Positions 1,116 through 27,099 of a stretch of DNA of 33,066 nt are shown in pieces; position 1 is the first letter of the stretch; every line of letters starts with the position of its first letter. A program made the translations under genes and the position numbers. The notes beneath the pieces are model-generated. The model was not told where the DNA came from and did no database searches. It saw only the letters and a program-made list of their open reading frames with translations. Source of the DNA: an uncultured Phycisphaerales bacterium (GTDB lineage: Bacteria > Planctomycetota > Phycisphaerae > Phycisphaerales > JAGLTS01); the NCBI GenBank assembly GCA_964655955.1, contig CAZZPX010000002.1:1-33066 (forward strand), in the 5' to 3' direction.

Positions 1116-1382
1116 TTATATGGCCTTGCGTTCTTCCAGCCACGCGACAAACCGCGCGGCTGCTTCGTCGTCCAGGTAGTGCCCGGTCATCGGGTCGGCG
1201 ATGTACAGGCTTCCGTCAGCGTCCACGCTGGCCGTTTTGGCGTTGGAAAACTCCGCCAACAGATCGTCGGGTGTGACGTCGCCCTCCCAGTGTCCGGCCT
1301 TGTAGCTGTTGACCCATTCCGACAGTCTTTGCATCGCGTTCATTTGTCCTGACTCCTCGCGGCTGAGCCGCAAACGATTCAC
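1116..1382 (-). CDS. Hypothetical protein (88 aa; alternative start at 1343 gives 75 aa)
   Basis: The ATG at 1382 overlaps the stop of the upstream ATPase gene (ATGA). The internal ATG at 1343 is preceded by GAGGAG. The sequence is acidic and globular-looking. Confidence 0.6.
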   Translation of the reverse strand: MNRLRLSREESGQMNAMQRLSEWVNSYKAGHWEGDVTPDDLLAEFSNAKTASVDADGSLYIADPMTGHYLDDEAAARFVAWLEERKAI

Positions 1383-5057: not shown

Positions 5058-5130
5058 TTACGACCCTGTAGAATTGGGCCTGCCCTATCGCTACTGGGAT
5101 TTGCGTGAGCATCAGCGGCGAGAGTGTCGC

Positions 5131-11300: not shown

Positions 11301-11433
11301 ATCTGCATCGGATCGGGGCATCCGATCTTAATCACTTCCGGGGCGCGGTCCCCAAGCGGCTATCACCAACCGCCAGTAAATCAGGCCGAGGCTGCCTGCG
11401 GTGCGAATCGTTCATTCGTACAGAGGCAACGCT

Positions 11434-12870
11434 ATGGCCGACATTTTTGATCAATTCGAGACTCTGATTCGAGAGCATATCGACGATGCGGTTCTAAACC
11501 TTGAACTGCCCGGCGATGATGTTGTCAATTCACTGCTTGCCACAATGCCGGAATGGGCCAAGGTCGGGCGACGACTCGACGGCGCAGCCGGCTATGAGGC
11601 CAGTTATCGCATCCAAGTCATGGAGGGCGGCTTGGTCGAGGGTGGCCGGTTCGGCGAGGCCGAACTGACCCAGATGGGATTCGGATCGAATCTCAACATG
11701 GGCATCGGCATTACCAGTGGCTATCCCGATCCGCGAAACGTCCCCCAGGAAACGTGGCTGCCCATCAAGGTGTTCCTGAAACGCCTCAAGGGCAACGTCA
11801 CGCAGGACCTGGAGCAGCTTCACGCCGAAATTTCCACCACGCCCATCGACTCCATCGCGATGAACAAGCTGATGTCCGCAACGTCTCAGATTCGGCATCA
11901 CTTCGCATCGCACGTCTACGGCGACGGTACGGCCTCCCTGGCGCAGTTCGCCGAGGCCGGGACCATCTTCGAGGCTGGGGCGAGCGTGGTAGGACTGACC
12001 GTCAAGAGCGGGACCCCGTTCCGGTTCAAGAAGGGGCAGCGATATGTCATTGGCACTGACGCCAGTCCGCGCGTACAGGTGCTTGGATCGAACGGTGGCG
12101 GCGTGGTTCGATGCGTCGAGATTGACGACCGGGACCGCAAAGTCGTGTTCCAGGCCGAGGCGGGAGGCGGAAACTTCACCATCACTGCCGACATGCACAT
12201 CATGCAGGCCGGCTTGTACGACTTCACTGCGGCGAGCACTGCGGCGGGCACGCTGGCCATCAACGGGTTCGAGAGCTACATCAAGAACTCCGGAACCTAT
12301 CCGGGCACGTCCCTGGACGTTGGCCACCTGCACGAGCTGCGCGGCTACGTGTTCGGCAACGAATCGACTCCGGAAAATCCCGAAGCCGCGCTTCTTGCCG
12401 ACGCAATTGACCGCATGACCGACGCGGGCGTTGAGCCGCCTCCGGTCATGATTGCCGAGCAGTCCGTCTGGACGCTGTACGCTCTGCTGGAAAAGCAGGC
12501 CGGCGCGACGTACCAGGTGCCGAACGGCGGGACGTTTGTCGCCAACGGCGGCGTTGACGGCCCGATGTTCACGCATGGCGGCAAGTCGTTTGCCCGACTC
12601 TCCAGCAATCGCATCCGACCCAACAGCATTCTGGGCCTTACCCCGCAAGCGTTCGTGAAGCTCACTCCGATGGGCGACCGGACCGTGCGGTGGTTCAAGA
12701 GCCAGGGCGGCACGGCGATGGCCGCGTCGGTGTTCGAGTCGGTTCAAGACGGCGGCATCATGAAAACCATGATGCAGGCTCCGTTCGATACGTTCTGGGA
12801 ACTTGGCTGCCGCGAGCCGAAGCGCAACTTCCGCTACGTCGGCCTGCACAATCAGCGAGAGAATGTGTAA
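11434..12870 (+). CDS. Major capsid protein (478 aa from the ATG at 11434; the track's GTG at 11401 is less likely)
   Basis: Position after the scaffold, its size, and its own upstream intergenic region. No family motif was verified. Confidence 0.65.
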   Translation: MADIFDQFETLIREHIDDAVLNLELPGDDVVNSLLATMPEWAKVGRRLDGAAGYEASYRIQVMEGGLVEGGRFGEAELTQMGFGSNLNMGIGITSGYPDPRNVPQETWLPIKVFLKRLKGNVTQDLEQLHAEISTTPIDSIAMNKLMSATSQIRHHFASHVYGDGTASLAQFAEAGTIFEAGASVVGLTVKSGTPFRFKKGQRYVIGTDASPRVQVLGSNGGGVVRCVEIDDRDRKVVFQAEAGGGNFTITADMHIMQAGLYDFTAASTAAGTLAINGFESYIKNSGTYPGTSLDVGHLHELRGYVFGNESTPENPEAALLADAIDRMTDAGVEPPPVMIAEQSVWTLYALLEKQAGATYQVPNGGTFVANGGVDGPMFTHGGKSFARLSSNRIRPNSILGLTPQAFVKLTPMGDRTVRWFKSQGGTAMAASVFESVQDGGIMKTMMQAPFDTFWELGCREPKRNFRYVGLHNQRENV

Positions 12871-14576: not shown

Positions 14577-15109
14577 ACGCGAACCTGTTCAGGCTTCTGT
14601 TCATGCGTCCGCGTCCGGATTGGAACCGACGCGGCCCGAAGCTGCCCGCATGGTGGAGGGCCGGCCTGAAGCGCATCGACCCGCTGCTGGACATGCAGTT
14701 CATGCCGGCGGCGAGTTGGCGTGATCCGGACGGCGTTGACCGCGAGAAGTACCCGCACGGCGTATGGGTCGTTGTGCGTCGTCTCAGGTGGACTCGGCTG
14801 CTTCACAAGCGCTGGGTCTGGTGCCTGACCGATGAGCACGGCAACTATCGCGCGCCGGGAAAGGACAGCCTGCGGTTGCTCCTGTACGCATTCAGGGCGC
14901 ATCGCACCGGCGATTCTTTGAAGATAGAGCGGGCATTTGACAGGTCGCTGTCTCAACTGAAGGCGGCGAAGAGCGAGGAAAGCAAGGCAAGGCTATCGGA
15001 GCGAGTTGCCAGTGCGATGAGGCGCATGGGCATGCCCAACACCGCTGGCGGGCGAATCTTCAATCCGTGGGGCGGAAATGGGTCAAGCGTTTCTGGACAG
15101 GCTATATGA
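14573..15109 (+). CDS. Hypothetical Arg/Trp-rich protein (178 aa)
   Basis: In-operon ORF with coupled start. No recognisable motif. Confidence 0.55.
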   Translation: MNANLFRLLFMRPRPDWNRRGPKLPAWWRAGLKRIDPLLDMQFMPAASWRDPDGVDREKYPHGVWVVVRRLRWTRLLHKRWVWCLTDEHGNYRAPGKDSLRLLLYAFRAHRTGDSLKIERAFDRSLSQLKAAKSEESKARLSERVASAMRRMGMPNTAGGRIFNPWGGNGSSVSGQAI

Positions 15110-15986
15110 GTCGGTTTACGACTACATCGGCGATCCGAACACCACGCGCCGGCTTCCCAAGTCGAAAATACTCTCCGACTTCAACACGGTCGAGCGCGAG
15201 CTGACCGAGTATCTCCTGCGCCTTAGCGGCCAGGAGTCCACCATCAATCGGGCCGAAGCCGACATTACGATTCAAAGCGGGGTAGCCTTCTATCAGTTCC
15301 CGGTCGGGTTCCGAAACTTCATCCGGCTCGAAAAACGCACGGATGGGGACCGGAACCAGGTCGAAGGAATCCTTCAATCCATTCCGGAGCACTACCGCGC
15401 CCAAGTTGGCGTTGTCGTTCTTTCCGCTGACCGCGGCTTCGAGATTCGGCCCATGCCTCGATTGGACGCCGATGAGACCTGGACCCTGGTATACCAGAGG
15501 GGTCCGATCCTGATTCATCACGGAACGGCCCAGGCCGTTACGGACAACACGCTGACGCTGGCCACTTCGCCGGACGCCGATGGTGGGGAGATTGTCGGCC
15601 TGGACGATTACTACAACGGCTCGATGGTCCACGTTTACAGCGCCACGGCGGGTTCATATCAGACCGCAGAAATCACGGATCACGTCGCATCGACCAAGGT
15701 TCTGACGCTGCGGCACGACTGGGCGACGAATCCGACAGGAACGATCAAGTACGAGATTCGGCCAGTGATTCCGACCGAGTATGACGACGTGTACGCACTG
15801 CGCGTCGCGATGAGAAATTGCAGCCGAAGGGAGCAGGCCCGACGCTGGAACCACCTTCGAGCCGAATTTGAGTCTCTGATGGAAGGCGTTCGTTCATGGG
15901 TGCTTCAGAACGTGAGTGACCGACCGAACGAACGCGTTGTGCATGACCTGACCCTTGGCGTGGACCCATACGATGGCGTCTGTTGA
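15078..15986 (+). CDS. Virion structural protein, possibly a head-tail adaptor (302 aa)
   Basis: Position between the head genes and the large tail protein. The function is a positional guess. Confidence 0.55.
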   Translation: MGQAFLDRLYESVYDYIGDPNTTRRLPKSKILSDFNTVERELTEYLLRLSGQESTINRAEADITIQSGVAFYQFPVGFRNFIRLEKRTDGDRNQVEGILQSIPEHYRAQVGVVVLSADRGFEIRPMPRLDADETWTLVYQRGPILIHHGTAQAVTDNTLTLATSPDADGGEIVGLDDYYNGSMVHVYSATAGSYQTAEITDHVASTKVLTLRHDWATNPTGTIKYEIRPVIPTEYDDVYALRVAMRNCSRREQARRWNHLRAEFESLMEGVRSWVLQNVSDRPNERVVHDLTLGVDPYDGVC

Positions 15987-16242
15987 TTGGAATTGGAACT
16001 TCGCTCGCCGCGACATGGTGCCGGACGAATCCGGTCTTAACGCCACACGCCGAATCGCGGATCAGGTGTTTCGGTCGATGTACGGCGATCCGGTTGCGCC
16101 GTCGGCCCCGGCGTCTCTGAACTCACGGCCGAGCGAGTTTGATGTTGTTGGTCGTCGCATGCAGCCCAAGAGGCCGATACAGGAATTCGGTCCGGGCAGC
16201 AGTCTTGAGTGGATGAGCGACTTTTTCGGGATGTCAGGATAG
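15973..16242 (+). CDS. Hypothetical protein (89 aa from the ATG at 15973)
   Basis: The ATG overlaps the end of the previous gene. Its stop overlaps a candidate GTG start of the next gene. Confidence 0.45.
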   Translation: MASVDWNWNFARRDMVPDESGLNATRRIADQVFRSMYGDPVAPSAPASLNSRPSEFDVVGRRMQPKRPIQEFGPGSSLEWMSDFFGMSG

Positions 16243-19200
16243 TGCCGACTCAGGTCGAAAAGCGCGGAGACGGAAATCGTCTTGTCCATGAGTTTCCGGG
16301 CGTTGTGCCGGAACTGGACATGACTGCCGACCCCTGGAACCTGGAAGATGGTCAGGCATCCATCGTCGAGGGCGTTGACGTGACGGTGGCCAATGCGCTG
16401 CGCATCGCGCCGATGCGCGACCCAGAAGGCATGATTACGCTATCGCCGTATTCCGCGTCAAACCCGATCGTCGAGGCGTTCGGCTCCGAAATGTTCGGGC
16501 CGTGTCCGAAGCGGTACGCGACGACATTGAAGAGGAACTTCACCGCAGCAGTGAACACCTATGACGACACAGGGAACGGGGCAGGAGAGCACGCACTGGT
16601 TCATACCGGAGCGTTCACAAACTACGATTGGGACTCTGGCGATCACGCAGTTATCTATGACGGCTTGGATGTGTATGAGTCCGCAGTGGCGTCGCGAGTA
16701 AGCGACGATGCAATACTCTTGGCTGACTCGCTTGGAGGGGACTTGACCACCGTAAACGTCGAGATCGTCAAGGGGCGGTCTTTGTTCTACTTTCGATCCG
16801 GCGCATCCCTGACTCCGCATTACCTGATCAAGTCGCCCGAAGAGTATGCGCTGACAGGGGCATGGCCGGAGCAAATGGAAGGCGCGTACATCGTTTCTAA
16901 CGCAGACGGCCGCCATGCCGCGACACAGATTGGACTTATTACCGGCAGAGTCGGAATAATCAGTTCCAACGACGCACTTCGATACATCGGATTCGGCACT
17001 CAACTGGTCGCTGAGGACAAGATCAGCATTCTGTTCAGCCAGCAGTTTGACAAACGCGGCGTGTGGGCGAGCGACGGCGAAAAGCTGGCACTCTTGCAGA
17101 ATTTCCTGTGGGGTCTCTACTTGGACCTCAACAACAACAGTACGATTGGGGAGTCATGGCGAATGGCTATGATATCCCCCCATCTTCTTCTGCTCGTGAA
17201 CGACAAGTATGCGCCGCGCATTATCAGGCTTGACGCATCGGCGCAGACCGCAAACACGAATCCAAGAGACCTGACGATCGCCGGGCTGCTCACGCCCAAG
17301 AAGCCGGAAACATCGGAAAGCGATGGCGATGACGACGGTCGGACGCAATACAAGAGCTGGGTCATGGTCGCCAATGGTTCGGGAGGATCGCTGTCGGCCG
17401 GTACGTATCGCGTCAAGGTGCGGGCGGTAAACTACATCGACAATGCGGAGTCGCGGTTCGTCGATGTCTACGATTCGGCGGACCTGGACGACAAAGATAT
17501 CACGGCAACGTCCAGTGACGCATTGAAGGTCTGGAACCAACTCAGCACTGATACGCACCTGAATTGGCCTCCAATGCACGAGCGTTGGACGCATCTTGAA
17601 ATCTGGCGTACTCAAGCCAACGGATCGGCCTACTTCCTGGAACGCATCATTGAAATCAATACGTTCTGTGCCAATGAGGACGGCCAGGCGTCCACAAGCG
17701 GGACTCTGGTCCAGCAGACGACGGACAGTGGCATATTTGCCTGTTCGATCTCTGACGCATCTTTGGCCAACCAGCCGCAGGCCACTTCGGCCGACCTTGC
17801 CGCAGGCGGACCTCCGCCAATCTGTAAGGATGCTGTGAGCCTGTCCGGAGTGACGCTGTGCTTCGGCGCTGCTTCTGAGGATGCCGAGGACCCGACGTTT
17901 GACGCGCGAATGTTCCCGATGCACGGTCAAAGCAAGTCGGGATACACGCACGCATCGAGGCAGGTCAATTTCGGCAGCGGGTCTCCGCTGGCCAACTATG
18001 CCTTTGTGGCTGGCGACAGACTTGAAGTGTTCTCGCCTACCGCGGCGATTGGCGTGTATCCGATCAATTCGAGAATCAGCGACAGCATTGTGGACCTCAC
18101 CGCGCCCGGAATTGGCGCAAATTACGACGAACTCGATATGTGCATTCTCAGGGCGCACACCATCGTCTGGCCGAAAATCGCCAGCGATGAGGATGTCTGG
18201 TACAGCCGTACAGACAAATTCGCGCCGGAGAGCTTCCCGACCAGGAAGCTGACGCTCTCCAGTCTCGGCGACACCTATCGCCGCGCCGTTCGCACCGGAC
18301 GATACGTGGCCGTAATCATGGACCAGGGCGTTCATGTGTTGTATCTGTCAGGTTCTGACTTGCTAAAGACGACCATCGCATCCAGCGGCATGGGAACGCC
18401 GTGGAGCAAGTCGGTTGTGTCTTTGGGCAATTTCGTGTTCTGGGCCACAAAGATCGGCCCGCGAATGATGCGAACCAGCGCCGACGTTGACGACCAGGGC
18501 AATCTTGGGTCGATCAGCTTCATGCCTGGATCGGAGCGCGTCAGGCAGTGGTTCGAGGATGCGTTCAATGATGGTGACGACGTTGATGCTGGCGTGGATA
18601 CGCTGCATCAGTGCATCCGGTTCAGGAAGTCGCCGGATACGAACAACTACCAATCCCTCCAATTCTCGTTCGTAACCGGCAAATGGGGCGTGTACCCGGA
18701 CGATTCCGGTGTTGCCTATGTGAGCACGAAGTACGCCGGAGCAATGCCGCTTCTGTCCCCTGCCTTGTATTCCGTGACGCAGCGAGGCAATCTGTTCAGG
18801 CTCAATAGCGTCAAGCTGACGCACGCCTACGATTCCCGGCCTTGCCAGGGCGTCTTGAATGGTACGTACACTATTACAACCACGAGCCTTACAAAGACAA
18901 ATGAGTTCTCGGCCGCAATGGTAGGCGACATTGTTCGGTTCCGATCAAGTGACCCGTCGATTGATGGCCAATCTCGCCGAATTCTGACTGCATCGACCAG
19001 CCAGATAACGTTCGACGCGGTAACAGGGCTTGGAAATGGAGTCGAGTACATCGTGGGCGCTCCCCGAATGCGCATCCGGTACGCCCCGCTCCGCGGGCAG
19101 GGCGACCCGATGAACACCAAGACCATCGAGGGAAACCTATGCGTGGCCATTCCTGGTCCGCGCCATACCGATCCGTCCGGTGGTTGGCCCGATACGCCGC

Positions 19201-19460
19201 CTGGATCGGTGAAGATGAAGTCGTACCGGGATTACGTTCCGACGACCGAGCATGAGGACGGATTCAACATATCCGTGTTCCGGGACGACACCGTTGCCAA
19301 GAAATCTGAGGATCGATACGGGGCTTTACAGTGCCAGGGGCGCGCAATTGAGGTAGAATTGGAATGCCTCGACGCCAAGACGGACCTTAGAATTGAGCGG
19401 ACAATGGTTCGTTTTCGCGAAGATGGAGACACGGTCGAGGATGACCGAACCGACGCATAG
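16209..19460 (+). CDS. Large tail/nozzle-type structural protein (1083 aa; alternative GTG start at 16242)
   Basis: Long, uninterrupted, beta-rich ORF in the tail position. No motif identified. Confidence 0.65.
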   Translation: MDERLFRDVRIVPTQVEKRGDGNRLVHEFPGVVPELDMTADPWNLEDGQASIVEGVDVTVANALRIAPMRDPEGMITLSPYSASNPIVEAFGSEMFGPCPKRYATTLKRNFTAAVNTYDDTGNGAGEHALVHTGAFTNYDWDSGDHAVIYDGLDVYESAVASRVSDDAILLADSLGGDLTTVNVEIVKGRSLFYFRSGASLTPHYLIKSPEEYALTGAWPEQMEGAYIVSNADGRHAATQIGLITGRVGIISSNDALRYIGFGTQLVAEDKISILFSQQFDKRGVWASDGEKLALLQNFLWGLYLDLNNNSTIGESWRMAMISPHLLLLVNDKYAPRIIRLDASAQTANTNPRDLTIAGLLTPKKPETSESDGDDDGRTQYKSWVMVANGSGGSLSAGTYRVKVRAVNYIDNAESRFVDVYDSADLDDKDITATSSDALKVWNQLSTDTHLNWPPMHERWTHLEIWRTQANGSAYFLERIIEINTFCANEDGQASTSGTLVQQTTDSGIFACSISDASLANQPQATSADLAAGGPPPICKDAVSLSGVTLCFGAASEDAEDPTFDARMFPMHGQSKSGYTHASRQVNFGSGSPLANYAFVAGDRLEVFSPTAAIGVYPINSRISDSIVDLTAPGIGANYDELDMCILRAHTIVWPKIASDEDVWYSRTDKFAPESFPTRKLTLSSLGDTYRRAVRTGRYVAVIMDQGVHVLYLSGSDLLKTTIASSGMGTPWSKSVVSLGNFVFWATKIGPRMMRTSADVDDQGNLGSISFMPGSERVRQWFEDAFNDGDDVDAGVDTLHQCIRFRKSPDTNNYQSLQFSFVTGKWGVYPDDSGVAYVSTKYAGAMPLLSPALYSVTQRGNLFRLNSVKLTHAYDSRPCQGVLNGTYTITTTSLTKTNEFSAAMVGDIVRFRSSDPSIDGQSRRILTASTSQITFDAVTGLGNGVEYIVGAPRMRIRYAPLRGQGDPMNTKTIEGNLCVAIPGPRHTDPSGGWPDTPPGSVKMKSYRDYVPTTEHEDGFNISVFRDDTVAKKSEDRYGALQCQGRAIEVELECLDAKTDLRIERTMVRFREDGDTVEDDRTDA

Positions 19461-19468
19461 GTGACGAC

Positions 19469-21127
19469 ATGGCTGCTTGGGAAATACCAGTTGGCGCGGG
19501 GCTTGGCCTCTTCGACTACTTTGCCGCACTTGACGCGGAGCGAAGGAATCAGGATCGCCTTGAATCAGGCATTGGCCGGCTGGATGCAGCCAAAGACGAA
19601 CTGCGCGGCATCTTCGGCATGGAGTCCCGTTCACCGTTCGGACGGCATGGCGATTTTACCATTGACCGATCCGCTGGTTCCGGTAGTCGCCTTGCCGGCG
19701 GCGCGGCATCCAGCGGCAGAGGCCATTCTGGGTTTCTGGACCCGATAGAGGGCAGAGGCTATCCGGACTTGTCACCGCCGGGTGACGAACCTTTCATTCG
19801 GCCCGACATAGACGATCTGTTTACTCAGGCGGAATCGTTCAGAGAGGGCATCCCGGCGGGCGGATTTGGCTCTGCGGCGGACCAGTTGGCCCAGAACCTC
19901 CGCCGCCAACTTCGCAGCGACCGTGACGCGATCAGCGGCAGGCTTCGCGAAGCGATGATTCCTGTAGGAAGTACGTTTGACGTGGTGGACTTCCCGGACT
20001 TCAGTGGTGATGCGTATCGAGCCGCGGCGATGGGCGATATCGCGGCCGGGCGAGAAGCGCAAACGCAAGTGGCTCGCGAACAGGCCGTGGCCCGCGGATT
20101 GTCTCAGGGGCGCAGCCTGAGCGAGATTGCGCCGGACCTTGACGTTCTGGAATATCAGCTTGGAGGACAAGCCGGGCAGTTGGCCCGCGGAGTAGAGAAC
20201 ACGATCGAAACGAATCGCCTCGGATACGGCGCACAGCGGGCAGCGCTACAGGCCGATCTCGCCTCGAAGGAACAGGCCATTAACGCGGCGCTGGGGCAAC
20301 AGGATGCCCAGATCATGGCGGCACTGGCTGGCCAAGAAGCGGGCCTTGGCGAGACCCTTGGCAGGTTCGGGCAAACGATGGACTTCAACACCGCGGCCAA
20401 TCTTGCGAATCTGACCGGAGCGGATCAGATCAACACGAGCAACCTGGAACTGGCGCTTCGCAACATGAGTCAGCAGGACCGGCAGGCGTTCGCGTCCTTG
20501 ATGTCGGGATTGACGACCGGACAGGCGACCGGAGAGTTCAATTACAACCAGATTGTCCCGCAGATATTCCCGGCATTCGTGTCGCTAATGAATGCCAGAG
20601 AGGACAATCAGCCGGAATCGAAAGGATCGTCCGGCCTGAGCATCTTCGGATTTGGTTTCTCCAGTGGCTGCATCGTGGATACGGCCCTGGTACCGACTCC
20701 GGACGGCGCTAAGCCGCTGGAAAGCCTGAAGGTCGGAGACGTGGTAATCGACGGCGACGACAATGAGGCCGTGATTGTCGCCAAGGACCACGGAGACGAC
20801 CCGAATCGGCCCCGACTCGTATGGTTTGAGACTGATGACGGAGCCAGGATCGGCGGAACGCCGGATCATGTCGTCGATGGAGAAACGCTTGGCGAAAGAC
20901 TGGCCGGCGACGTTATCGAACGGAACGGAAAGGAAACCAGGATTGTCCGGCTGTGGTACGGACCGTATCAGACAATGGGCGATTTGGCTCTGTCGAGTCG
21001 CGCCGAATGGGTCGCCAACGGGTTCCGAGTCAAGAGCCGCATCCAGGATACGATCGATACGATTGGAATCGACGCGTGGGAATCGAAGATTGACGACTAC
21101 GGCCACATAAAGCAGGAGGTTGCGTGA
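19469..21127 (+). CDS. Virion/internal protein with a C-terminal Hint (Hedgehog/intein-like) autoprocessing domain (552 aa; Hint roughly 20669-21040)
   Basis: GFGFSSG|CIVDTALVPTPDGAKPLESLKVGDVVIDGD matches Hint block A, with Cys401 at 20669. GGTPDHVV matches the TxxH block B. The distal WVANGFRVKS resembles the end of Hint_2-type domains. AGGTGA SD. Confidence 0.7.
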   Translation: MAAWEIPVGAGLGLFDYFAALDAERRNQDRLESGIGRLDAAKDELRGIFGMESRSPFGRHGDFTIDRSAGSGSRLAGGAASSGRGHSGFLDPIEGRGYPDLSPPGDEPFIRPDIDDLFTQAESFREGIPAGGFGSAADQLAQNLRRQLRSDRDAISGRLREAMIPVGSTFDVVDFPDFSGDAYRAAAMGDIAAGREAQTQVAREQAVARGLSQGRSLSEIAPDLDVLEYQLGGQAGQLARGVENTIETNRLGYGAQRAALQADLASKEQAINAALGQQDAQIMAALAGQEAGLGETLGRFGQTMDFNTAANLANLTGADQINTSNLELALRNMSQQDRQAFASLMSGLTTGQATGEFNYNQIVPQIFPAFVSLMNAREDNQPESKGSSGLSIFGFGFSSGCIVDTALVPTPDGAKPLESLKVGDVVIDGDDNEAVIVAKDHGDDPNRPRLVWFETDDGARIGGTPDHVVDGETLGERLAGDVIERNGKETRIVRLWYGPYQTMGDLALSSRAEWVANGFRVKSRIQDTIDTIGIDAWESKIDDYGHIKQEVA

Positions 21128-21570
21128 TGGCTCTTGGCATGCCAATGGCAATGGGCGGCGCTGTCGCGCAGGCGGCGCAAACGGCTGCGGCCCCGGCCCT
21201 GAATGCAGTTGCGAACACGGCTGCCCAGTCCGCGATGCCGGGCTTCTTTAGTTCAGGCGGCATTCTCGAAAAGCTGGCGTCCATGTACGGCGCACAGGCT
21301 GGCGGTCTTGGCGGTCTCGGCGCAATGGGCGGTGTCAAGTTCGCGATGAATCGTGGCGGGCGCAGCTTCGCGTTCGGCAACATCGACAACGGCGGCGGCA
21401 TGGCCGAAGAGGAAAAGATACTCAAGCTGGCTGAGCGGCTGATGTCCAAGGCCAACTCCATCAATGAGGCTCCGATATCACAGAGCGCTCCGGAGCGCCA
21501 GGTGCGAGCGGCAGACTTCACGGTTCCGAACGTCGGCTTGCCGTACATTCCGCTGATCGGCAGGAGATAG
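21124..21570 (+). CDS. Gly/Ala/Met-rich internal protein with glycine-zipper-like stretches (148 aa)
   Basis: AGGAGG SD. Start overlaps the previous stop. Contains GAQAGGLGGLGAMGGV. Confidence 0.6.
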   Translation: MMALGMPMAMGGAVAQAAQTAAAPALNAVANTAAQSAMPGFFSSGGILEKLASMYGAQAGGLGGLGAMGGVKFAMNRGGRSFAFGNIDNGGGMAEEEKILKLAERLMSKANSINEAPISQSAPERQVRAADFTVPNVGLPYIPLIGRR

Positions 21571-21573
21571 GCG

Positions 21574-22713
21574 ATGGCGCAGTTTATTCCAATCGGTGGC
21601 GGGGCGCAGTTGCAGCCGCGGGTCGTCGTGTCCGGCAACCGTGGCCCTTCTGCCGCCGAAATGCTTGCGCTGATGATGCAGTCGGACCGCAACCAGAATC
21701 GGCTCAGTGCCGCAGAAGCGCTGGCACTGATTCTGCCCATCATGCAGGGTGCGATGGGGCAACAGAACTTCGCCGCGCAGCTTGCTGCACAACAATCGCA
21801 GTTCGGGGAACGTCTCGGCTTTGAGCGTGAACAATCCGAACGCGAGTATGATCTTTTGGCAAAGAAGCTGGGGTTCGATACGGCCCAGCAGTCCAACCAG
21901 TTCGCATTGATGATGAAGCAGTTGGAGCAGTCCGGAGAGGCGCAGGCCCAGCAAGGCCAAATGAATGCCGCACAGATCGAGGCGATTCGCGCGAGTATCG
22001 AGCAGGCGAATCAGCAGAACAAGCTGATACAACAGGACAGACAGGCCGCGCTAACTACTGTGGCGGCGGAGAACATCATCAACGATGTGATGGTGAGCGG
22101 AGATGTCAAGAGGCAGACTATCGAGAATGCCGAGGCGGAACGCGAGCTGGAGCATTCCGCAGCCGCAATGGATCACGCCATGTCTCTGGCAACGCAAATG
22201 GAGGCAGAGTCCGGCGGGAGTTTCCTGCATGGGCAGCCACTAATGACGCAGTGGTTTGGCGGCGGCGCAGACAAGGTGCTGGATACGCTTCTGAAGAACA
22301 TAGAAGCTGGCGAGCAAGTGTTCACCTATTCGCGAGTTGGCGAACCGATACCAGCAGACCCCGGCTTGGACCAGTACGGATATCTGCAAACGCTTGAACA
22401 CCTCATGGGCGACCCTGGGGCAGTGTCCAATCTGAGCCGGGACGCAAAGCAAAAGGCAACCAGATTCCTCGCCAGTCCGATCGCCGCCAGGATTCGCCAG
22501 GACGAAAGGCAGAGGCAGAAGGATTACCGGCAGTCATTGGTTAAAGTTGGGCAGGATACGCGCAAGGCGACGCAGGGCGTCAAAGAGCGCGCGCGTTCGG
22601 CCCAGCGAGAGATTTACGACGAAATCGCGCCGCTCCTGTCGAACATTCAAATGGTCAACGGGTTGCCCGTGTTTACAATGACGGACCTGCCCGTTCCGGC
22701 GGAGTTTGAGTAA
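21574..22713 (+). CDS. Gln-rich coiled-coil internal/ejection-type protein (379 aa)
   Basis: AGGAGA SD. Long Q/E/A heptad-like tracts. Confidence 0.6.
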   Translation: MAQFIPIGGGAQLQPRVVVSGNRGPSAAEMLALMMQSDRNQNRLSAAEALALILPIMQGAMGQQNFAAQLAAQQSQFGERLGFEREQSEREYDLLAKKLGFDTAQQSNQFALMMKQLEQSGEAQAQQGQMNAAQIEAIRASIEQANQQNKLIQQDRQAALTTVAAENIINDVMVSGDVKRQTIENAEAERELEHSAAAMDHAMSLATQMEAESGGSFLHGQPLMTQWFGGGADKVLDTLLKNIEAGEQVFTYSRVGEPIPADPGLDQYGYLQTLEHLMGDPGAVSNLSRDAKQKATRFLASPIAARIRQDERQRQKDYRQSLVKVGQDTRKATQGVKERARSAQREIYDEIAPLLSNIQMVNGLPVFTMTDLPVPAEFE

Positions 22714-23177
22714 TGCCAGCGATAATCCCGATCATCCTGTCCATGATTGCCTCGACGGCGGGCCATGCTGGCGTGCGCGCCCTGCTTGGCAGACTTGGAA
22801 CGCAGGCCGCAAAGTCCGGCGCTGGAAAGATCGGCGAGATTGCCGCCCGTCAGATAACTCCGGCCATCGGGAAGCACATTCCACAGGTAACTGTGGGGAG
22901 CATTGGGCGTGGCGGCGCGGAGCTTGCCTCCATGCTGGGCGGACTTGGTGCGTTTGAACTGACGCACCGCGTCTTGGATGCAGACGACGGAGAGAGCGCT
23001 GTTGCGCAGGGTTCGGCCAGTATGATCCATGCGGATCAGCCGGCGCAGCTACAGAGCGTGGCACTACAATCGGCCCTTGAGGAATACATGCGCGGCAGCG
23101 TGGAAGAGGACGCGGAAATGGACCGCATGTTGAATCATATCGTGATGAACGCACCGCAAATGCGGAGGCTGGTGTGA
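22713..23177 (+). CDS. Membrane-associated internal protein (154 aa)
   Basis: TAATG coupling. Hydrophobic N-terminus MPAIIPIILSMIASTAG and a second Gly-rich hydrophobic patch. Confidence 0.55.
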   Translation: MPAIIPIILSMIASTAGHAGVRALLGRLGTQAAKSGAGKIGEIAARQITPAIGKHIPQVTVGSIGRGGAELASMLGGLGAFELTHRVLDADDGESAVAQGSASMIHADQPAQLQSVALQSALEEYMRGSVEEDAEMDRMLNHIVMNAPQMRRLV

Positions 23178-23178
23178 T

Positions 23179-24135
23179 ATGGCTGCCTTTGACGAAATGC
23201 TTTTGTCTCGTCTGCAAGTTGCAGAGGCGAGCGGGGATCTCAAGACCGCTGCCGTTCTCAGGGAGTTGGCGTCCACGAGGCGCGCCGAACTGAAAGAACG
23301 TGGAGGCGTAGAGCGGATTCGTGCGCAAACCGAAGGAAAGCTGTCCCTTGCCAGACAGGCCGACGAAATCGCGGTTCGTAACCGAGCTATCGAGGACGCC
23401 ATTCGCGTGCGCGATGCTCGTCGAGAGCAACAGCAGATTAACGCACAAAAGCGCGTGGCCTTGAATCTGGCCGTCACTTCGCCCGGATCGGAGCAACTCC
23501 AAACGCTCATCAACAGCATTTCCGACAAGGGCGACGTGGCTGGTGCTGCCCATATCCGAAACGTCGCCGAGCAGAACCGCGCCGTCAAGGTTGCCCGGGC
23601 GCAGGACTTCGTTGTGCGAAACGTCGCGCCGGGCGTGGATATTGGCCAGTTCACGACAGAGATTCAGGACGTGGCCAAGGGCGAGCGCGTCGGACTCAAG
23701 ATACTGGAGAACAAGGTCAAAGAGGCCAATGTTCGGGCCATGGCCGAGGCTGGCGAGATTCGACGCTTGGCCGGGACCGGATTGCCGCTGACCGAGGCGC
23801 AGCGCGTTGCGGCCATTCCCGCCACGACTAGGCCGATCGCGGAAGCAGAGGCGGTCAGAGGTCTACGCCGCGGCCAATTCGTGAAGGGGGCCGCCGGCGC
23901 TGGCGTCTTGGGCCTTGTCGCCCACTTGCTGTTTGGCAGGGAAAAGACGCCCCAGAATCCGCAAATCGACCCGCGGATGCAGGCCGCATTGATGCAACAG
24001 TTGCAAAGCGCTGAATCTGTTGGGTTCGATCGAGACACCCGGACCATGGCGCGGATTCTCGGCATGATCAAGACTCTGGAGAATATGTCAGGCGTTCAGT
24101 CCCAAACGGCTCCGCCGATGGCCGGGATTATCTAG
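23179..24135 (+). CDS. Coiled-coil protein with a C-proximal hydrophobic segment (318 aa)
   Basis: Heptad-rich sequence, and GAAGAGVLGLVAHLLFG near the C-terminus. Confidence 0.6.
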   Translation: MAAFDEMLLSRLQVAEASGDLKTAAVLRELASTRRAELKERGGVERIRAQTEGKLSLARQADEIAVRNRAIEDAIRVRDARREQQQINAQKRVALNLAVTSPGSEQLQTLINSISDKGDVAGAAHIRNVAEQNRAVKVARAQDFVVRNVAPGVDIGQFTTEIQDVAKGERVGLKILENKVKEANVRAMAEAGEIRRLAGTGLPLTEAQRVAAIPATTRPIAEAEAVRGLRRGQFVKGAAGAGVLGLVAHLLFGREKTPQNPQIDPRMQAALMQQLQSAESVGFDRDTRTMARILGMIKTLENMSGVQSQTAPPMAGII

Positions 24136-24144
24136 GAGTTCGGA

Positions 24145-27099
24145 GTGGCTCTGTCGTTTCAAGACCAGCTCAACGTCGGCATCGCCAGCATAACGAGCGG
24201 CGACATGGACCTATTGTCCACGATGCTGCTTGAACCGAACAGCGTCACGCTGGACGAAATGCGGACCACTTCCGACAAGCTTGGTGTGACGGGATCGTTC
24301 CAGCGATGGTTCGTTGACACCGTGACTGATCCGACCGTGCTCGTGGCGTGGCTGCTCTCCCGGCGCTACCCAACGTCGAGCTGGTTGACCGGGCGCGTGG
24401 CCGACCGGCATATCGGGTCAGCGAATGATTTCACCGGCGTCAGCATGTTCACCCGCCCGGTCGAGAACTACTTCCGTGGCACGAACATCCCCAAGCTTGT
24501 CGGCCTGTCCATGCGCCGGCACGCCGAAGTGATGAAGGTCGGCAAGACAATGTTCGACCGATTCATGAATCGGCCCAACTGGCGAAACGAGAAGCCTATC
24601 GTCAGCCTGCTCATGGAGGGCCAGAATCCGTCCGGCGCAACCCCAGAGCTTCGCACACTGGCCACTACGCTGCGGCAGGACATGGATGAACTGTGGGGCT
24701 TTCTACGGCACGCCAAGGACATTGACGTTGGCCTGTACAACGAAACGGTGAGCAAGGCGCGCTGGCGGGAACGATCGCACACAGGGGCTGCGCAATACCT
24801 GAGAGACTATCTTCCCCACCTTCCGGCGACCTATTCAAACGAATCGGTAGTCGCCTTGGGCGGACAGGAGGCTCTTCGCCAACTCGGCAAGAACCAGGTA
24901 TGGGGTATGCTCAAAGCGTCCGGACTTACGCCGGAAACCGTCTGGAGCGTGGACAAAGCTGGCCGGCTGTCGTCGAACTTTGCCAAGGTGCAGGAGTTCA
25001 TGAACAACGGCGGCGACAAGATCATCAATCCGCGTCTGTACCAGAGGACCAGGCATAACTTGCCGATCCAGAGCGCCATGGGCCAGGAACTGTTCGTGGC
25101 CGACCTGGACGTTGTGTTGCAGCATTATGTCAACAGCGTGGCGCGGTCCTACGCCAATTACGCACCGCTGTCCAAGACTGAGCGGGCCATTTCCAGTTCC
25201 ATCATCGAGCATCGGGACGGAAGTGTTGGGCGAATCTACCCCAGCGAGGACCCGATACTGGTTCAGGTCATTAACGAGGGTATCGACAGCCTTGGCGGCA
25301 ACATCGTTCAAAGGCAGGTCCCTGGAACGCCTCACGTCCGAAGCGAATTGACTGCCGGCACCGGCAACTATCACATGCTGAGCGGACTCAAGACCCTGGT
25401 CCGGGCCATGCGCGGCGACCTGTCGGACGATGAGATTTTGTGGGGCAACCTGTATTCGTCGGCTCGCGCATCGTTTGATCGGGCCGCTGGCCGGGTTCTG
25501 GGCCGAAAGCAGGAGGCCACACTCGACGCTACGCTCAATTCGATCCAGCGAAGCCGCGACTACCGACGCCACATGAACGGGATTGCTGGCTATTTCTATG
25601 CCACCACGCTTGGCCTGAACCCCTGGACGGCCATGCAGAACATCTTGCAGCCGGCTATCACGACAGCACCCAGCATCGGCATTGGCCCGACGCTGGCCGG
25701 ATATCGCACGCTGGGCAAGAAAGTTGGCGACTACATGAACGCCATCGCCCGCCGGCATCGAATGATGCGCGGCAATCAGAGCGTAGGAGCTACCGGGCGG
25801 CTCATGTCGTCGGTCGAGTCGGCGTTCGAGGACACATTCCCGGAGCTGGCCCAGGCCGGCATGCGGATCGATCCGCGGCTGTTCGAGGGGACTGGGGAAT
25901 TCCTGGTTAATGAGGGCGGTCGCCGCGTGTTCCGCAACGTGGACGACTACTTGCGGGCGACGATGCTTCCGTTTACGCAGACCGAAGCGGCCAACCAAAT
26001 CGTCAGCTTCTACGGCTCAAAGGAAGCGCTGCGGCGTGCCATGCGAGCCGGCGAATGGACTCCGCCAACATCACTGACAACAGGCAAGCCTGTCGTTGGG
26101 TTCGAGCTTGAAGAGGCACTGAACTTCGAGGCGTCGATGAATGTCAACGCCACACAATTCAGGCCCGGACCTGGAAGCCGCACAAAGTTTCAGTCGCTTC
26201 TACCGGCTCCGTTCCGGCAAATGACGACGTTCGCGACCAGGCTGTTCAACTACTTTACGGAATCTACCGTTCGCGGAGCCATGACCAGGGCCGAGCTTGG
26301 GCAGTCCGGCCTGTGGGCACAGGTGACGGGCGGCCGGAACCTGGGCCCGCTGTCCAGAACCTACCTGTACGGGAAGATCGCAGCTAACGGCGCTCGGGAA
26401 GTGCTGGGCATTGATCTGACCGGAGCGCTGGGCGTTACGGCCCCGTTCGCGAACACTTCGCCCGGACTTGGCGTTGTGCCGCTTCCGATACCGCCGCTTC
26501 CGACGACCATTGGCGGAATCGTCAGCTTTACGGCGACCAGGGACGTGAAGGACTTGCAGCCGCTGGAACTCCCGGGCGGTTATCAGGTTCCCATACCCAA
26601 GACATTGTTCCCGGCCGGCGTGTCTGCGAATCGACTCTTCCGCGCCATGAACCAATGGAGGCCGGACGTTGGCGGGTTTGTCGATGAAAATGAACGGCTG
26701 ATGTGGCGCGGCACTAGCACAGATTTGATCATGTCGATGCTAGGTATTCCGCTGGAAAAGCAGCGCAGGGCAAGGCATGATATGGAGCGTTTGCACGCCA
26801 ATCGGACCGCGATTCGAGACTTTCGTCGCCGATTCGCAGTGGCTCGATTGAATGGCGATTACGCCGAAATGGACGTGCTGCAACAGAACTACCAGAAGGC
26901 GTTCCCGGATATGGCCCCGCTGTCTGTCTCTGACGCAGACCTTCGCAGGTATCGCGAACAGTCCCGAATAACGCGGGTCGAGCGAATGCTGCAATCGATG
27001 GGGTCCAGGTCGAGGTACCTTCAGGATCACATATACGATCATGATCCCGATTTAATTGCGGAACCGAGTCCGCTGTCTGTACTGGTGAATTCGCTATGA
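24145..27099 (+). CDS. Large internal virion / ejection-type protein (984 aa, GTG start)
   Basis: AGGAG SD. Size and position resemble podovirus core proteins. I could not see a transglycosylase or peptidase motif. Confidence 0.65.
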   Translation: MALSFQDQLNVGIASITSGDMDLLSTMLLEPNSVTLDEMRTTSDKLGVTGSFQRWFVDTVTDPTVLVAWLLSRRYPTSSWLTGRVADRHIGSANDFTGVSMFTRPVENYFRGTNIPKLVGLSMRRHAEVMKVGKTMFDRFMNRPNWRNEKPIVSLLMEGQNPSGATPELRTLATTLRQDMDELWGFLRHAKDIDVGLYNETVSKARWRERSHTGAAQYLRDYLPHLPATYSNESVVALGGQEALRQLGKNQVWGMLKASGLTPETVWSVDKAGRLSSNFAKVQEFMNNGGDKIINPRLYQRTRHNLPIQSAMGQELFVADLDVVLQHYVNSVARSYANYAPLSKTERAISSSIIEHRDGSVGRIYPSEDPILVQVINEGIDSLGGNIVQRQVPGTPHVRSELTAGTGNYHMLSGLKTLVRAMRGDLSDDEILWGNLYSSARASFDRAAGRVLGRKQEATLDATLNSIQRSRDYRRHMNGIAGYFYATTLGLNPWTAMQNILQPAITTAPSIGIGPTLAGYRTLGKKVGDYMNAIARRHRMMRGNQSVGATGRLMSSVESAFEDTFPELAQAGMRIDPRLFEGTGEFLVNEGGRRVFRNVDDYLRATMLPFTQTEAANQIVSFYGSKEALRRAMRAGEWTPPTSLTTGKPVVGFELEEALNFEASMNVNATQFRPGPGSRTKFQSLLPAPFRQMTTFATRLFNYFTESTVRGAMTRAELGQSGLWAQVTGGRNLGPLSRTYLYGKIAANGAREVLGIDLTGALGVTAPFANTSPGLGVVPLPIPPLPTTIGGIVSFTATRDVKDLQPLELPGGYQVPIPKTLFPAGVSANRLFRAMNQWRPDVGGFVDENERLMWRGTSTDLIMSMLGIPLEKQRRARHDMERLHANRTAIRDFRRRFAVARLNGDYAEMDVLQQNYQKAFPDMAPLSVSDADLRRYREQSRITRVERMLQSMGSRSRYLQDHIYDHDPDLIAEPSPLSVLVNSL

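What the first reader, a model, noticed from the sequence alone, without database searches (positions are those of the whole stretch)
19469..21127. Virion-module protein ending in a Hint (Hedgehog/intein-like) autoprocessing domain
Residues from about 401 onward read as a Hint domain. They include a nucleophilic Cys after a Gly-rich linker (GFGFSSG|CIVDTALVPTPDGAKPLESLKVGDVV), a TxxH block (TPDHVV) and a Hint_2-like distal segment (WVANGF). Hint domains cleave, or transfer, the polypeptide N-terminal to the Cys through a thioester. Here that would release a helical, Gly/Ala/Gln-rich fragment of about 400 aa, encoded immediately upstream of the glycine-zipper and coiled-coil internal proteins. 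The thioester could also be resolved by another nucleophile, attaching the fragment covalently to a lipid or a partner protein, as in Hedgehog cholesterol transfer. I do not know of self-processing of an ejection or tail protein by a Hint domain as a described maturation mechanism, so it deserves testing.
Basis: partly seen in the sequence, partly recalled or inferred. Interest (0 to 1): 0.7.

Follow-up and report, generated by a model that had tools for sequence, protein, structure and literature searches.

The report
Self-cleaving Hint domain on phage virion protein
A gene in the tail and injection-protein block of an uncultured short-tailed phage encodes a 400-residue helical protein fused to a Hedgehog/intein-type (Hint) self-cutting domain that almost certainly removes itself, a way of maturing a phage particle protein that I could not find described.

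Summary
ORF 19469-21127 (+) encodes 552 aa, and residues 401-523 form a Hint (Hedgehog/intein) domain. The window protein alone scores below Pfam's cut-offs. A profile of 45 relatives, however, hits only Hint-fold proteins in the PDB (gp41-1 intein E=5.9e-10), and the AlphaFold model (pLDDT 94) superposes on inteins, BIL domains and Hedgehog (TM 0.70-0.84).

Across 47 relatives that are only about 20-30% identical, the only invariant residues are Cys401 and His467. Thr464, Asp505 and Ser523 are nearly invariant. The intein's C-terminal His-Asn and the +1 nucleophile are both absent, so the domain can cut its N-terminal junction but cannot splice.

Three orthologues lack the Hint domain and stop right at the Gly-rich junction. 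One of them sits in the same gene slot. That is the best available evidence that the mature product is the fragment 1-400.

The gene keeps a conserved position in seven of the eight related contigs long enough to judge: adaptor, then a ~1000-1100-aa nozzle-like gene, then this gene, then a run of further genes ending in a ~985-aa one. By position it is a tail-needle or first ejection protein.

Cleavage itself, its timing and any Hedgehog-like adduct transfer are untested. I rate this a new variant of a known kind, of moderate-to-high interest.

The parts
19469..21127 (+). Whole gene: 552-aa precursor (N-terminal helical fragment, Gly-rich junction, Hint domain, short helical tail; stop at 21125-21127)
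   Evidence: ORF list and translation. 54 relatives with E<=0.001 among 1.84 billion representative proteins.
19469..20668 (+). Residues 1-400: predicted mature product. Mostly alpha-helical, with one continuous helix over residues 217-316, and a hydrophobic N-terminus conserved in character.
   Evidence: AF2 secondary structure. Alignment A3 with Hint-less orthologues that cover exactly this part. No PDB or PHROG match.
20612..20668 (+). Junction motif PESKGSSGLSIFGFGFSSG (residues 382-400). Family consensus is P-K-x-S-S-x-F-G-F-S-I-L-G-x-G... This becomes the new C-terminus after cleavage. The -1 residue is small in 39 of 45 members.
   Evidence: Consensus of A1 and A3. The same motif ends the Hint-less orthologues P0044, P0047 and P0049. 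-1 residue counts: G19, S13, T4, A3.
20669..20671 (+). Cys401: position 1 of the Hint domain, the predicted nucleophile for the N-to-S acyl shift at Gly400|Cys401
   Evidence: Invariant in 47/47 and 45/45 sequences. By register it falls on intein Cys1: the gp41-1 alignment begins at profile position 7, one residue after the Cys.
20669..21037 (+). Hint domain proper, residues 401-523
   Evidence: pLDDT 93-98. Foldseek TM 0.70-0.84 to inteins, BIL and Hedgehog. Profile E=5.9e-10 to gp41-1 intein.
20786..20788 (+). Asp440: conserved acidic residue (D37, E5 of 45), a possible counterpart of Hedgehog D46
   Evidence: Column counts. hhalign places it on Hh D46 at 82.8% probability, but hmmalign shifts it by three residues. 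Inconclusive.
20858..20869 (+). Block B, T-P-D-H (Thr464, His467): the TxxH motif that polarises the scissile bond
   Evidence: T in 42/45, H in 45/45. Aligned with S-E-E-H of gp41-1 and with T69/H72 of Hedgehog.
20981..20983 (+). Asp505 in the G-D-L motif, the block-F-type aspartate
   Evidence: D in 44/45. In the profile alignment it falls on the Asp of the gp41-1 segment ELIDIEV. I take that residue to be D107, the one mutated in the 6riz variant (my counting; not confirmed from the structure).
21032..21037 (+). Lys522-Ser523 at the end of the last strand, where inteins have His-Asn. Ser523 is nearly invariant and residue 522 is variable.
   Evidence: S in 44/45; penultimate residue is His in only 6/45; the following residue is V or M in 28/45 and Ser in 1/45. 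Register taken from the conserved A-N-G-F motif against gp41-1.
21038..21124 (+). Residues 524-552: two short helices after the Hint domain, with a conserved G-[LI]-x-x-W motif. Role unknown. They stand in the position of the Hedgehog sterol-recognition region, but no similarity to it was shown.
   Evidence: Helices 524-532 and 534-540, pLDDT 93 falling to 59. Alignment A2, columns ~200-206.
15078..15986 (+). Context: adaptor protein gene
   Evidence: PF24175 SU10_adaptor, 30.1 bits against a cut-off of 27. Same relative position in L004 and L010.
16209..19460 (+). Context: 1083-aa gene directly upstream. Nozzle-like by size and position only.
   Evidence: No family or PDB match. A 972-1117-aa gene precedes the Hint gene in L001-L005, L009 and L010.
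21127..27099 (+). Context: five downstream genes (147, 379, 154, 318 and 984 aa), candidate ejection proteins. The first starts at a TGATG overlap with the Hint gene's stop, after an AGGAGG site.
   Evidence: Hydrophobic segments in the 154-aa and 318-aa products. No family matches. A similar run of genes in L002-L004, L006, L009 and L010.

Best explanation
The gene encodes a precursor. Its C-terminal 152 residues are a catalytically competent Hint domain of the non-splicing, N-terminal-cleavage type.

Proposed steps:
1. After folding, Cys401 attacks the Gly400 carbonyl, helped by Thr464, His467 and probably Asp505. This N-to-S acyl shift gives a thioester.
2. The thioester is resolved by water or a small cytoplasmic thiol. 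It may first pass to the near-invariant Ser523 as a branched ester, as Hedgehog C143 and the intein +1 residue do.
3. This releases the helical fragment 1-400, whose new C-terminus is the conserved Gly-rich motif. The Hint domain is discarded.

The 1-400 fragment is the working virion component: a tail needle or plug, or the first ejection protein, of a short-tailed phage.

The Hint domain would act as a removable C-terminal cap. It could hold the fragment soluble or unassembled, or mask its C-terminal motif, until the right assembly step. That is functionally like the self-cleaving C-terminal intramolecular chaperone of phage tailspikes, but with a different fold and chemistry.

Shown here: the Hint fold, the catalytic residues and their conservation, the absence of splicing residues, the Hint-less orthologues, and the gene position. 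Inferred: that cleavage occurs, when and where, the fate of the thioester, and the virion location.
For: - Hint identity: profile against the PDB, Foldseek, and Pfam Hint or Hint_2 hits in 17 and 9 of 45 members.
- Catalysis retained: Cys401 and His467 are the only invariant columns in 47 sequences with 16% mean column identity. Thr464, Asp505 and Ser523 are at least 90% conserved.
- The Hint part is more conserved than the rest: mean pairwise identity 34% against 18%.
- The -1 residue is small in 39 of 45 members.
- Not splicing: Ser replaces the terminal Asn in 44/45, the penultimate His is present in only 6/45, and the next residue is a nucleophile in 1/45.
- The mature product ends at the junction. 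P0049 (380 aa; L006, same gene slot after a 980-aa gene), P0047 (391 aa) and P0044 (425 aa) align end to end with residues 1-400 and stop within the same Gly-rich motif. No Hint domain is found in any of the six frames of L006-L008.
- Conserved slot: adaptor, then a ~1000-1100-aa gene, then this gene, in L001-L005, L009 and L010, with exactly one Hint domain per contig in the window and L001-L005.
- In SU10 the gene after the nozzle is the tail needle, followed by five ejection proteins (PMC9509320).
- Branched intermediates on a residue near the C-terminal end of the Hint domain are established for Hedgehog (PMC12054796).
Against: - No experiment. There is no cultured relative, so no virion proteomics is possible (only marginal hits).
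- The window protein alone fails Pfam's gathering thresholds.
- The virion role rests on position. The N-terminal fragment and all neighbours except the adaptor and terminase have no recognisable family.
- Hint-less orthologues show the domain is dispensable. That fits a cap or chaperone role, but it would also fit a neutral or selfish add-on.
- One member (P0021) carries ~240 extra residues after the Hint domain, so the C-terminal side is not always just a stub.
Confidence: 0.7

Rival explanations
1. Hedgehog-like transfer. The thioester, or a Ser523 ester, is attacked not by water but by a specific nucleophile such as a lipid, a cell-wall precursor, or an amine of a partner virion protein. 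The 1-400 fragment then ends in a covalent adduct, and the helical tail (524-552) serves as the adduct-recognition region.
For: - A conserved acidic residue (D/E in 42/45) is placed on Hedgehog D46, the base that activates cholesterol, by hhalign (role of D46 from PMC12054796).
- A conserved helical segment follows the Hint domain, where Hedgehog has its sterol-recognition region.
- Ser523 stands at the end of the last strand, near where Hedgehog has C143 (my counting from the A-N motif).
Against: - hmmalign shifts the Asp by three residues.
- Close stand-alone Hint_2 relatives have His at the matching spot.
- The tail is only ~29 residues and no similarity to any recognition region was shown.
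- Hint-less orthologues end in a plain carboxylate at the same motif, so an adduct cannot be essential to the fragment's function.
- Phage assembly takes place in the cytoplasm, where water and thiols are the obvious acceptors (general knowledge).
Confidence: 0.1
2. A non-cleaving or conditionally cleaving module. The Hint domain stays attached in the virion, for example as a distal knob of a needle or a docking domain inside the capsid. It either never cuts or cuts only after ejection into the host envelope.
For: - Needle proteins of P22-like and SU10 phages carry variable C-terminal domains (PMC9509320).
- P0021 has a further domain after the Hint domain, which would be lost if cleavage preceded assembly.
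- Nothing here shows when cleavage happens.
Against: - A purely structural role does not explain why the only invariant residues are the nucleophile and the block-B His.
- It also does not explain why orthologues can end exactly at the junction.
Confidence: 0.15
3. A true intein or C-terminal-cleaving element: the domain splices residues 1-400 to residues 524-552, or cuts at its own C-terminus.
For: The best structural and profile matches are mini-inteins.
Against: - No terminal Asn (Ser in 44/45), no conserved penultimate His, and no +1 Cys/Ser/Thr (1/45).
- Only 29 poorly conserved residues follow the domain.
- Hint-less orthologues have nothing after the junction.
- No homing endonuclease is present.
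Confidence: 0.02

Closest known systems
Hedgehog C-terminal autoprocessing (Hog/Hint) domain, e.g. Drosophila Hh-C, PDB 1at0
   Same: - A C-terminal Hint domain that acts on the Gly|Cys bond at its own N-terminus to release an N-terminal functional fragment.
- Cys1 and T-x-x-H with similar spacing.
- No terminal Asn and no splicing.
- A further short region follows the Hint fold.
- Foldseek TM 0.70; hhalign probability 82.8%.
   Different: - No sterol-recognition region.
- Ser, not Cys, at the end of the last strand.
- The equivalence to D46 is uncertain.
- Cytoplasmic phage protein, and no evidence of any adduct.
- The sequence is closer to inteins, BIL and Hint_2 than to Hedgehog (Shh E=0.054 against gp41-1 at 5.9e-10).
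Bacterial intein-like (BIL) domains and Pfam Hint_2 (PF13403) proteins, e.g. Clostridium thermocellum BIL, PDB 2lwy
   Same: - Non-mobile Hint domains in non-conserved bacterial proteins that auto-cleave rather than splice (function recalled from the literature: Amitai et al. 2003, Dassa et al. 2004; not re-read here).
- Profile E=4.3e-8 to 2lwy.
- The family profile retrieves PF13403-annotated proteins at 1e-24 to 1e-15, and these share the V-x-S ending.
   Different: - Fused to a phage virion-module protein in a fixed gene slot.
- Most members fall below Pfam thresholds.
- Lacks the His-Asn end that, as I recall, A-type BILs have.
Mini-inteins, e.g. cyanophage-like gp41-1 intein, PDB 6qaz/6riz
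   Same: Best fold and profile match (TM 0.81-0.84, rmsd 1.9-2.6 A, E=5.9e-10). Cys1, block B and the block-F Asp align.
   Different: No terminal Asn, no +1 nucleophile and no C-extein, so it cannot splice.
C-terminal intramolecular chaperone auto-cleavage domain of phage tailspikes and fibres (Peptidase_S74 type): functional analogue only
   Same: A C-terminal domain of a phage tail protein that removes itself after doing its job, leaving the mature N-terminal part in the virion (general knowledge).
   Different: Unrelated fold and Ser-Lys chemistry. No match to it here in Pfam or in the fold searches.
Pre-toxin HINT (PF07591) of polymorphic toxins
   Same: A bacterial Hint domain used for autoproteolytic release of a neighbouring segment.
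   Different: There the Hint domain precedes a C-terminal toxin. Here nothing but 29 residues follows, and there is no PF07591 hit for the window protein. P0022, P0041 and P0055, weak hits in the representative search, are of that type.
Uncultured-phage proteins auto-named 'Hint' in BFVD (A0A8S5UY86, Phage sp. ctKtV17, 521 aa; A0A8S5MW95, 360 aa)
   Same: They align with the model over 450-528 columns, so they have the same helical-N-terminus plus C-terminal-Hint architecture.
   Different: Database names only. I found no study of them. Their sequences and contexts were not retrievable here.

Membership tests
Hint (Hedgehog/intein) superfamily | Hint fold | tested here: met
   AF2 pLDDT 93.8, pTM 0.88. 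All 46 Foldseek PDB hits with E<=0.001 are Hint folds; TM up to 0.84.
Hint (Hedgehog/intein) superfamily | Cys/Ser/Thr nucleophile at position 1 of the domain | tested here: met
   Cys401 is invariant in 47/47 sequences. By register it falls on intein residue 1.
Hint (Hedgehog/intein) superfamily | Block B T-x-x-H | tested here: met
   Thr464 in 42/45, His467 in 45/45.
Hint (Hedgehog/intein) superfamily | Significant match to curated Hint profiles | tested here: inconclusive
   The window protein is below the gathering scores (16.2/29.7 and 14.4/28.4 bits). The family profile is highly significant against Hint proteins of the PDB and against PF13403-annotated proteins.
Inteins (protein splicing) | C-terminal Asn (or Gln/Asp), usually preceded by His | tested here: not met
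   Ser523 in 44/45. Penultimate His in 6/45.
Inteins (protein splicing) | Cys/Ser/Thr as first residue of a C-extein | tested here: not met
   The residue after Ser523 is V16, M12, N5, Q3...; Ser in 1/45.
Inteins (protein splicing) | Inserted within a host protein that is continuous in intein-less homologues | tested here: not met
   Hint-less orthologues end at the junction and have no counterpart of residues 524-552.
Hedgehog/Hog autoprocessing domain | Hint module at the C-terminus acting on a Gly|Cys junction, without splicing | tested here: met
   G400|C401. The -1 residue is G in 19/45 and small in 39/45. No splicing residues.
Hedgehog/Hog autoprocessing domain | General-base Asp (D46) and second nucleophile (C143) | tested here: inconclusive
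   D440 falls on D46 in hhalign but not in hmmalign. The C-terminal half does not align by sequence. Ser523 is a candidate counterpart of C143 only by my counting from the A-N motif. Residue roles from PMC12054796.
Hedgehog/Hog autoprocessing domain | Adduct (sterol) recognition region and transfer to a non-water nucleophile | not testable with these tools
   A conserved 20-30-residue helical tail exists, but its function cannot be computed. It needs mass spectrometry of the product.
Pre-toxin HINT (PF07591) | Hint domain followed by a C-terminal toxin domain; PF07591 match | tested here: not met
   No PF07591 hit even at E<=10. Only 29 residues follow the Hint domain.
Podovirus tail needle (P22 gp26 / SU10 gp18 type) | Gene directly after the nozzle gene; long trimeric coiled coil | tested here: inconclusive
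   The position fits and the model has a 100-residue helix. There is no sequence or fold match to any needle, the upstream gene is 'nozzle' by size only, and no multimer model was made.
Podovirus ejection (internal virion) proteins | Present in the capsid and lost on ejection | not testable with these tools
   No cultured relative. Needs virion proteomics.

The most novel reading that the evidence does not exclude
The Hint domain does not simply hydrolyse. Using Cys401, then Ser523 as a branched-ester relay, the conserved acidic residue 440 as a base and the helical tail as a recognition element, it would transfer the 400-residue needle or ejection fragment onto a specific acceptor such as a lipid, an envelope component or another virion protein. 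That would be a covalently modified or cross-linked phage delivery protein: a bacterial-virus counterpart of Hedgehog cholesterylation.
Probability: 0.08. Interest if true: 0.9.

Novelty: new variant of a known kind. Interest (0 to 1): 0.55.

Why it matters
Known maturation of phage virion proteins uses prohead proteases, Ser-Lys intramolecular chaperone domains, or cleavage by host enzymes. In phages, Hint domains are known as inteins in replication and packaging enzymes.

A conserved, non-splicing Hint domain that caps a tail-needle or ejection-slot protein across a whole uncultured podophage lineage would add a thioester-based, single-turnover step to virion assembly. The natural Hint-less orthologues serve as built-in controls.

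It would also give:
- a compact (~125-residue) N-cleaving Hint domain with a Ser in place of the terminal Asn, of possible use in protein engineering;
- a simple handle (C401A) for asking when and why a delivery protein's C-terminus must be masked;
- a link between phage Hint domains and a clade of small secreted Hint_2 proteins of Verrucomicrobia.

Tried and rejected
- Word-indexed homology search with the whole protein found only itself. With the C-terminal part alone it found nothing.
- PHROGs and NCBIfam gave no hit for the protein or for its N-terminal family.
- tblastn against 50,697 phage records gave only marginal hits (E 0.2-0.5), among them the intein region of the Mycobacterium phage Cane17 and Blubba portal genes.
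- The nozzle-like and portal proteins have no match among cultured phages. The nozzle-like and 984-aa proteins have no PDB match.
- The N-terminal profile against the PDB gave only a 19.6-bit lysozyme hit with no domain passing threshold. I discarded it.
- Correlating pairwise identity of the N-terminal and Hint parts, to test co-inheritance, gave rho=0.11. The N-terminal alignment is too poor at this divergence, so the result is uninformative.
- Sequence alignment to Hedgehog to fix the D46 and C143 equivalences gave conflicting or no alignment.
- Model coordinates are not exposed to scripts, so active-site distances could not be measured.
- Ten literature searches found no paper on a Hint domain in a phage tail or ejection protein. 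The 'Hint_2' search was swamped by the unrelated HINT2 gene.
- Rejected readings: a true intein (residue counts), a pre-toxin HINT (no toxin), and a chance motif match.
Full report
**1. What is there**

The window is a 33-kb, ~59% GC piece of an uncultured tailed-phage genome. It has the following recognisable features.
- A large terminase at 4834-7017 (phrog_38, E=8.6e-35).
- A weak podovirus-type major capsid match at 11401-12870.
- An adaptor protein at 15078-15986 (PF24175 SU10_adaptor, above threshold).
- No tRNA genes.

The finding's ORF is real: ATG 19469 to TGA 21125-21127, 552 aa. It follows a 1083-aa ORF (16209-19460) after 8 nt. Its stop overlaps the next start (TGATG), and an AGGAGG site lies inside its 3' end.

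**2. Is the C-terminus a Hint domain?**

On its own the protein gives only sub-threshold Pfam hits: Hint at 16.2 bits and Hint_2 at 14.4 bits, both starting at Cys401. It gives nothing in PHROGs or NCBIfam.

An exhaustive HMMER search of 1.84 billion representative proteins found 54 relatives. I aligned 47 of them full length (A1) and the C-terminal parts of 45 (A2).

- The A2 profile hits 36 PDB sequences. The significant ones I recognise are Hint-fold proteins: gp41-1 intein at 5.9e-10, BIL domain 2lwy at 4.3e-8, other inteins, the Tetrahymena BIL2 domain, and Sonic hedgehog at 0.054.
- The A2 profile also retrieves 223 proteins from the 5.8-billion-sequence set. Most of the 120 listed carry PF13403.
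- Scanned individually, 17 of 45 members hit Pfam Hint and 9 hit Hint_2.
- AlphaFold2 gives residues 401-540 pLDDT 93-98 in the full-length model. The isolated domain has mean pLDDT 93.8 and pTM 0.88.
- Foldseek puts only Hint folds at the top: gp41-1 intein TM 0.81-0.84, class-3 DnaB inteins ~0.75, BIL 2lwy 0.71-0.72, Hedgehog 1at0 0.70.

**3. Which kind of Hint domain?**

The only invariant columns in the whole family are Cys401 and His467. Conservation of the other key positions is as follows.

| Residue | Conservation |
|---|---|
| Thr464 | 42/45 |
| Asp505 | 44/45 |
| Ser523 | 44/45 |
| Gly413, Gly442, Gly518 | at least 90% |
| Position 440 | Asp or Glu in 42/45 |

- The Hint part is more conserved than the rest of the protein: mean pairwise identity 34% against 18%.
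- Counting from the conserved A-N-G-F motif against gp41-1 (…Y-A-N-D-I-L-T-H-N|S), Lys522-Ser523 stand where inteins have His-Asn.
- The penultimate residue is His in only 6/45 members. The residue after Ser523 is Val or Met in 28/45 and a nucleophile in 1/45.
- The residue before the Cys is Gly, Ser, Thr or Ala in 39/45.

So the machinery for the N-to-S acyl shift at Gly400|Cys401 is intact. The machinery for Asn cyclisation and for splicing is absent. That is the Hedgehog/BIL pattern, not the intein pattern.

**4. Natural controls**

Three relatives found through their N-terminal parts have no Hint domain: P0049 (380 aa), P0047 (391 aa) and P0044 (425 aa).
- They align end to end with residues 1-400.
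- They terminate inside the same Gly-rich motif: …GGVSVLGSGFNW*, …GGGGLQVG*, …GPVSFGYG*. The window has …GLSIFGFGFSSG|C.
- P0049 lies in a 12.8-kb contig in the same gene slot: a 980-aa gene, then it, then genes of 179, 365, 138, 404, 325 and 994 aa.
- A six-frame profile scan finds no Hint domain anywhere in L006-L008.

These orthologues show that the working protein is the 1-400 fragment with a free C-terminus at this motif. In them, translation termination does what the Hint domain is predicted to do by cleavage. This is the strongest computational support for autoprocessing that I could obtain.

**5. Context**

I retrieved eleven loci for nine relatives.
- In seven Hint-bearing loci (L001-L005, L009, L010) the Hint gene follows a 972-1117-aa gene. 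Where the contig reaches far enough, that gene follows a ~300-390-aa adaptor (weak PF24175 hits in L004 and L010).
- Downstream comes a run of genes ending in a ~967-986-aa one. L010 also shows a weak P22_portal hit upstream.
- A more distant member (P0042, L011) sits before a 439-aa gene and a 2130-aa giant gene.
- Each of the window and L001-L005 holds exactly one Hint domain.

In SU10, the source of the adaptor family, the order is nozzle gp17, tail needle gp18 (a trimeric coiled coil with a C-terminal domain), then five ejection proteins gp20-24 (PMC9509320).

By position, then, the window's protein occupies the needle or first-ejection-protein slot, and five genes follow it (147, 379, 154, 318 and 984 aa). 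The model's 100-residue unbroken helix (217-316) fits a coiled coil. However, no needle or ejection protein was matched by sequence or fold, and 'nozzle' for the upstream gene is by size and position only. I leave the virion role open between these two.

**6. Mechanism proposed**

The steps are as follows.
1. The precursor folds.
2. Cys401 attacks the Gly400 carbonyl, with Thr464 and His467 polarising the bond.
3. The thioester is hydrolysed or thiolysed.
4. Fragment 1-400 is released, and the 152-residue Hint piece is discarded.

The near-invariant Ser523, at the end of the last strand next to where the two ends of a Hint domain meet, may take the acyl group as a branched ester before hydrolysis. 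This would parallel the intein +1 residue and Hedgehog C143, which was recently shown to form such an intermediate (PMC12054796). This step is inference only.

The likely biological use is a removable cap that masks the conserved C-terminal motif, or keeps the helical fragment from assembling or inserting too early. That is a functional analogue of the self-cleaving C-terminal chaperone of tailspikes. Because Hint-less orthologues exist, the cap is an accessory and not a core part.

**7. The Hedgehog-style adduct idea**

Points in favour:
- hhalign places the conserved Asp440 on Hedgehog D46 at 82.8% probability.
- A conserved helical tail follows the Hint domain.

Points against:
- hmmalign shifts the Asp by three residues, and the C-terminal halves do not align.
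- Stand-alone Hint_2 relatives have His at that spot.
- Hint-less orthologues end in a plain carboxylate.

I give it about 0.1.

**8. Known or new?**

Hint autoprocessing is well known from Hedgehog, BIL domains and pre-toxin HINT. Phage Hint domains are known as inteins; for example, the phiCbK terminase intein is annotated with a Hint domain (PMC3556154).

BFVD already contains uncultured-phage proteins named 'Hint' that align with this model over their whole length (A0A8S5UY86, A0A8S5MW95). It also holds others that join a Hint domain to collagen, FN3 or PASTA modules. So the architecture is in the databases.

Ten full-text searches found no paper that describes or tests Hint-mediated processing of a phage tail or ejection protein. 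The library lacks most subscription journals, so this is absence in that library only.

I rate it a new variant of a known kind. It is a divergent Hint subfamily (V-x-S end, helical tail, mostly below Pfam thresholds) in a new and conserved biological setting.

**9. Verdict**

- Cleavage, its timing, the virion location and the fate of the thioester all remain to be shown.
- Interest is 0.55: worth a simple expression and mutagenesis test, and potentially a new assembly principle, but built from known chemistry.

Noticed in passing
window 2101-3015 (-), with 1379-2047 (-): A 304-aa protein combines an ArdC N-terminal domain (PF08401, 2.6e-25) with the polyvalent-protein zincin peptidase MPTase-PolyVal (PF18818, 1.8e-34). 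This is the anti-restriction/polyvalent pairing described for conjugative elements and phages (PMC5512222). A weak AAA-type ATPase gene lies next to it.
   Followed up: no
window 27934-29382 (+): A 482-aa protein with a calcineurin-like phosphoesterase domain (PF00149, 5.9e-6) lies directly after the block of candidate ejection genes.
   Followed up: no
P0056-P0175 (proteins; not in the window): The Hint profile of the phage family retrieves a large clade of ~150-230-aa stand-alone Hint_2 proteins. The ones that carry a source name are all from Verrucomicrobia. Most of the 30 sequences I read have a signal- or lipoprotein-like N-terminus, then K-[LI]-M-F-x-C, a Hint domain and a conserved P-V-N-S-M-I-E-E-M end, so they share the Ser in place of the intein Asn. 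If they self-cleave they would release only a ~50-70-residue membrane-anchored peptide. They might also hint at the host phylum of these phages.
   Followed up: partly
L006 3084-4226; L007 732-1907; L008 326-1501: These are orthologues of the N-terminal fragment that lack the Hint domain and stop at the junction motif. L006 has the same gene order as the window. No Hint domain is found in any frame of these contigs.
   Followed up: yes
L010 10001-12211 (P0021, 736 aa): A family member with the usual fragment and Hint domain plus ~240 further residues after the Hint domain. That extra part has no Pfam match. It is found on five contigs, in the same gene slot.
   Followed up: partly
L011 10001-19246: In a different phage lineage a distant Hint-bearing member (P0042, 507 aa, pre-Cys motif K-I-F-M-A-C) is followed by a 439-aa gene and a 2130-aa giant gene. 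So the Hint-capped protein is not confined to one genome type.
   Followed up: no
window 21112-21129: The next gene most likely starts at ATG 21127, overlapping the Hint gene's stop (TGATG), rather than at the GTG 21124 given by the mechanical ORF list. An AGGAGG site at about 21114-21119, 7 nt upstream of that ATG, suggests translational coupling.
   Followed up: partly
window 21127-27099: Five consecutive genes (147, 379, 154, 318 and 984 aa) have no family match in Pfam, PHROGs or NCBIfam. The 147-aa product is Gly/Ala/Met-rich, and the 154-aa and 318-aa products each have one hydrophobic segment. The number equals the five ejection proteins gp20-24 of SU10.
   Followed up: partly
BFVD entries A0A6J5QMR4, A0A6J5NYB8, A0A6J5NY54: Uncultured Caudovirales proteins annotated as collagen triple-helix repeat, fibronectin type III or PASTA also match the Hint domain. 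This suggests that C-terminal Hint caps occur on other phage fibre-like proteins.
   Followed up: no
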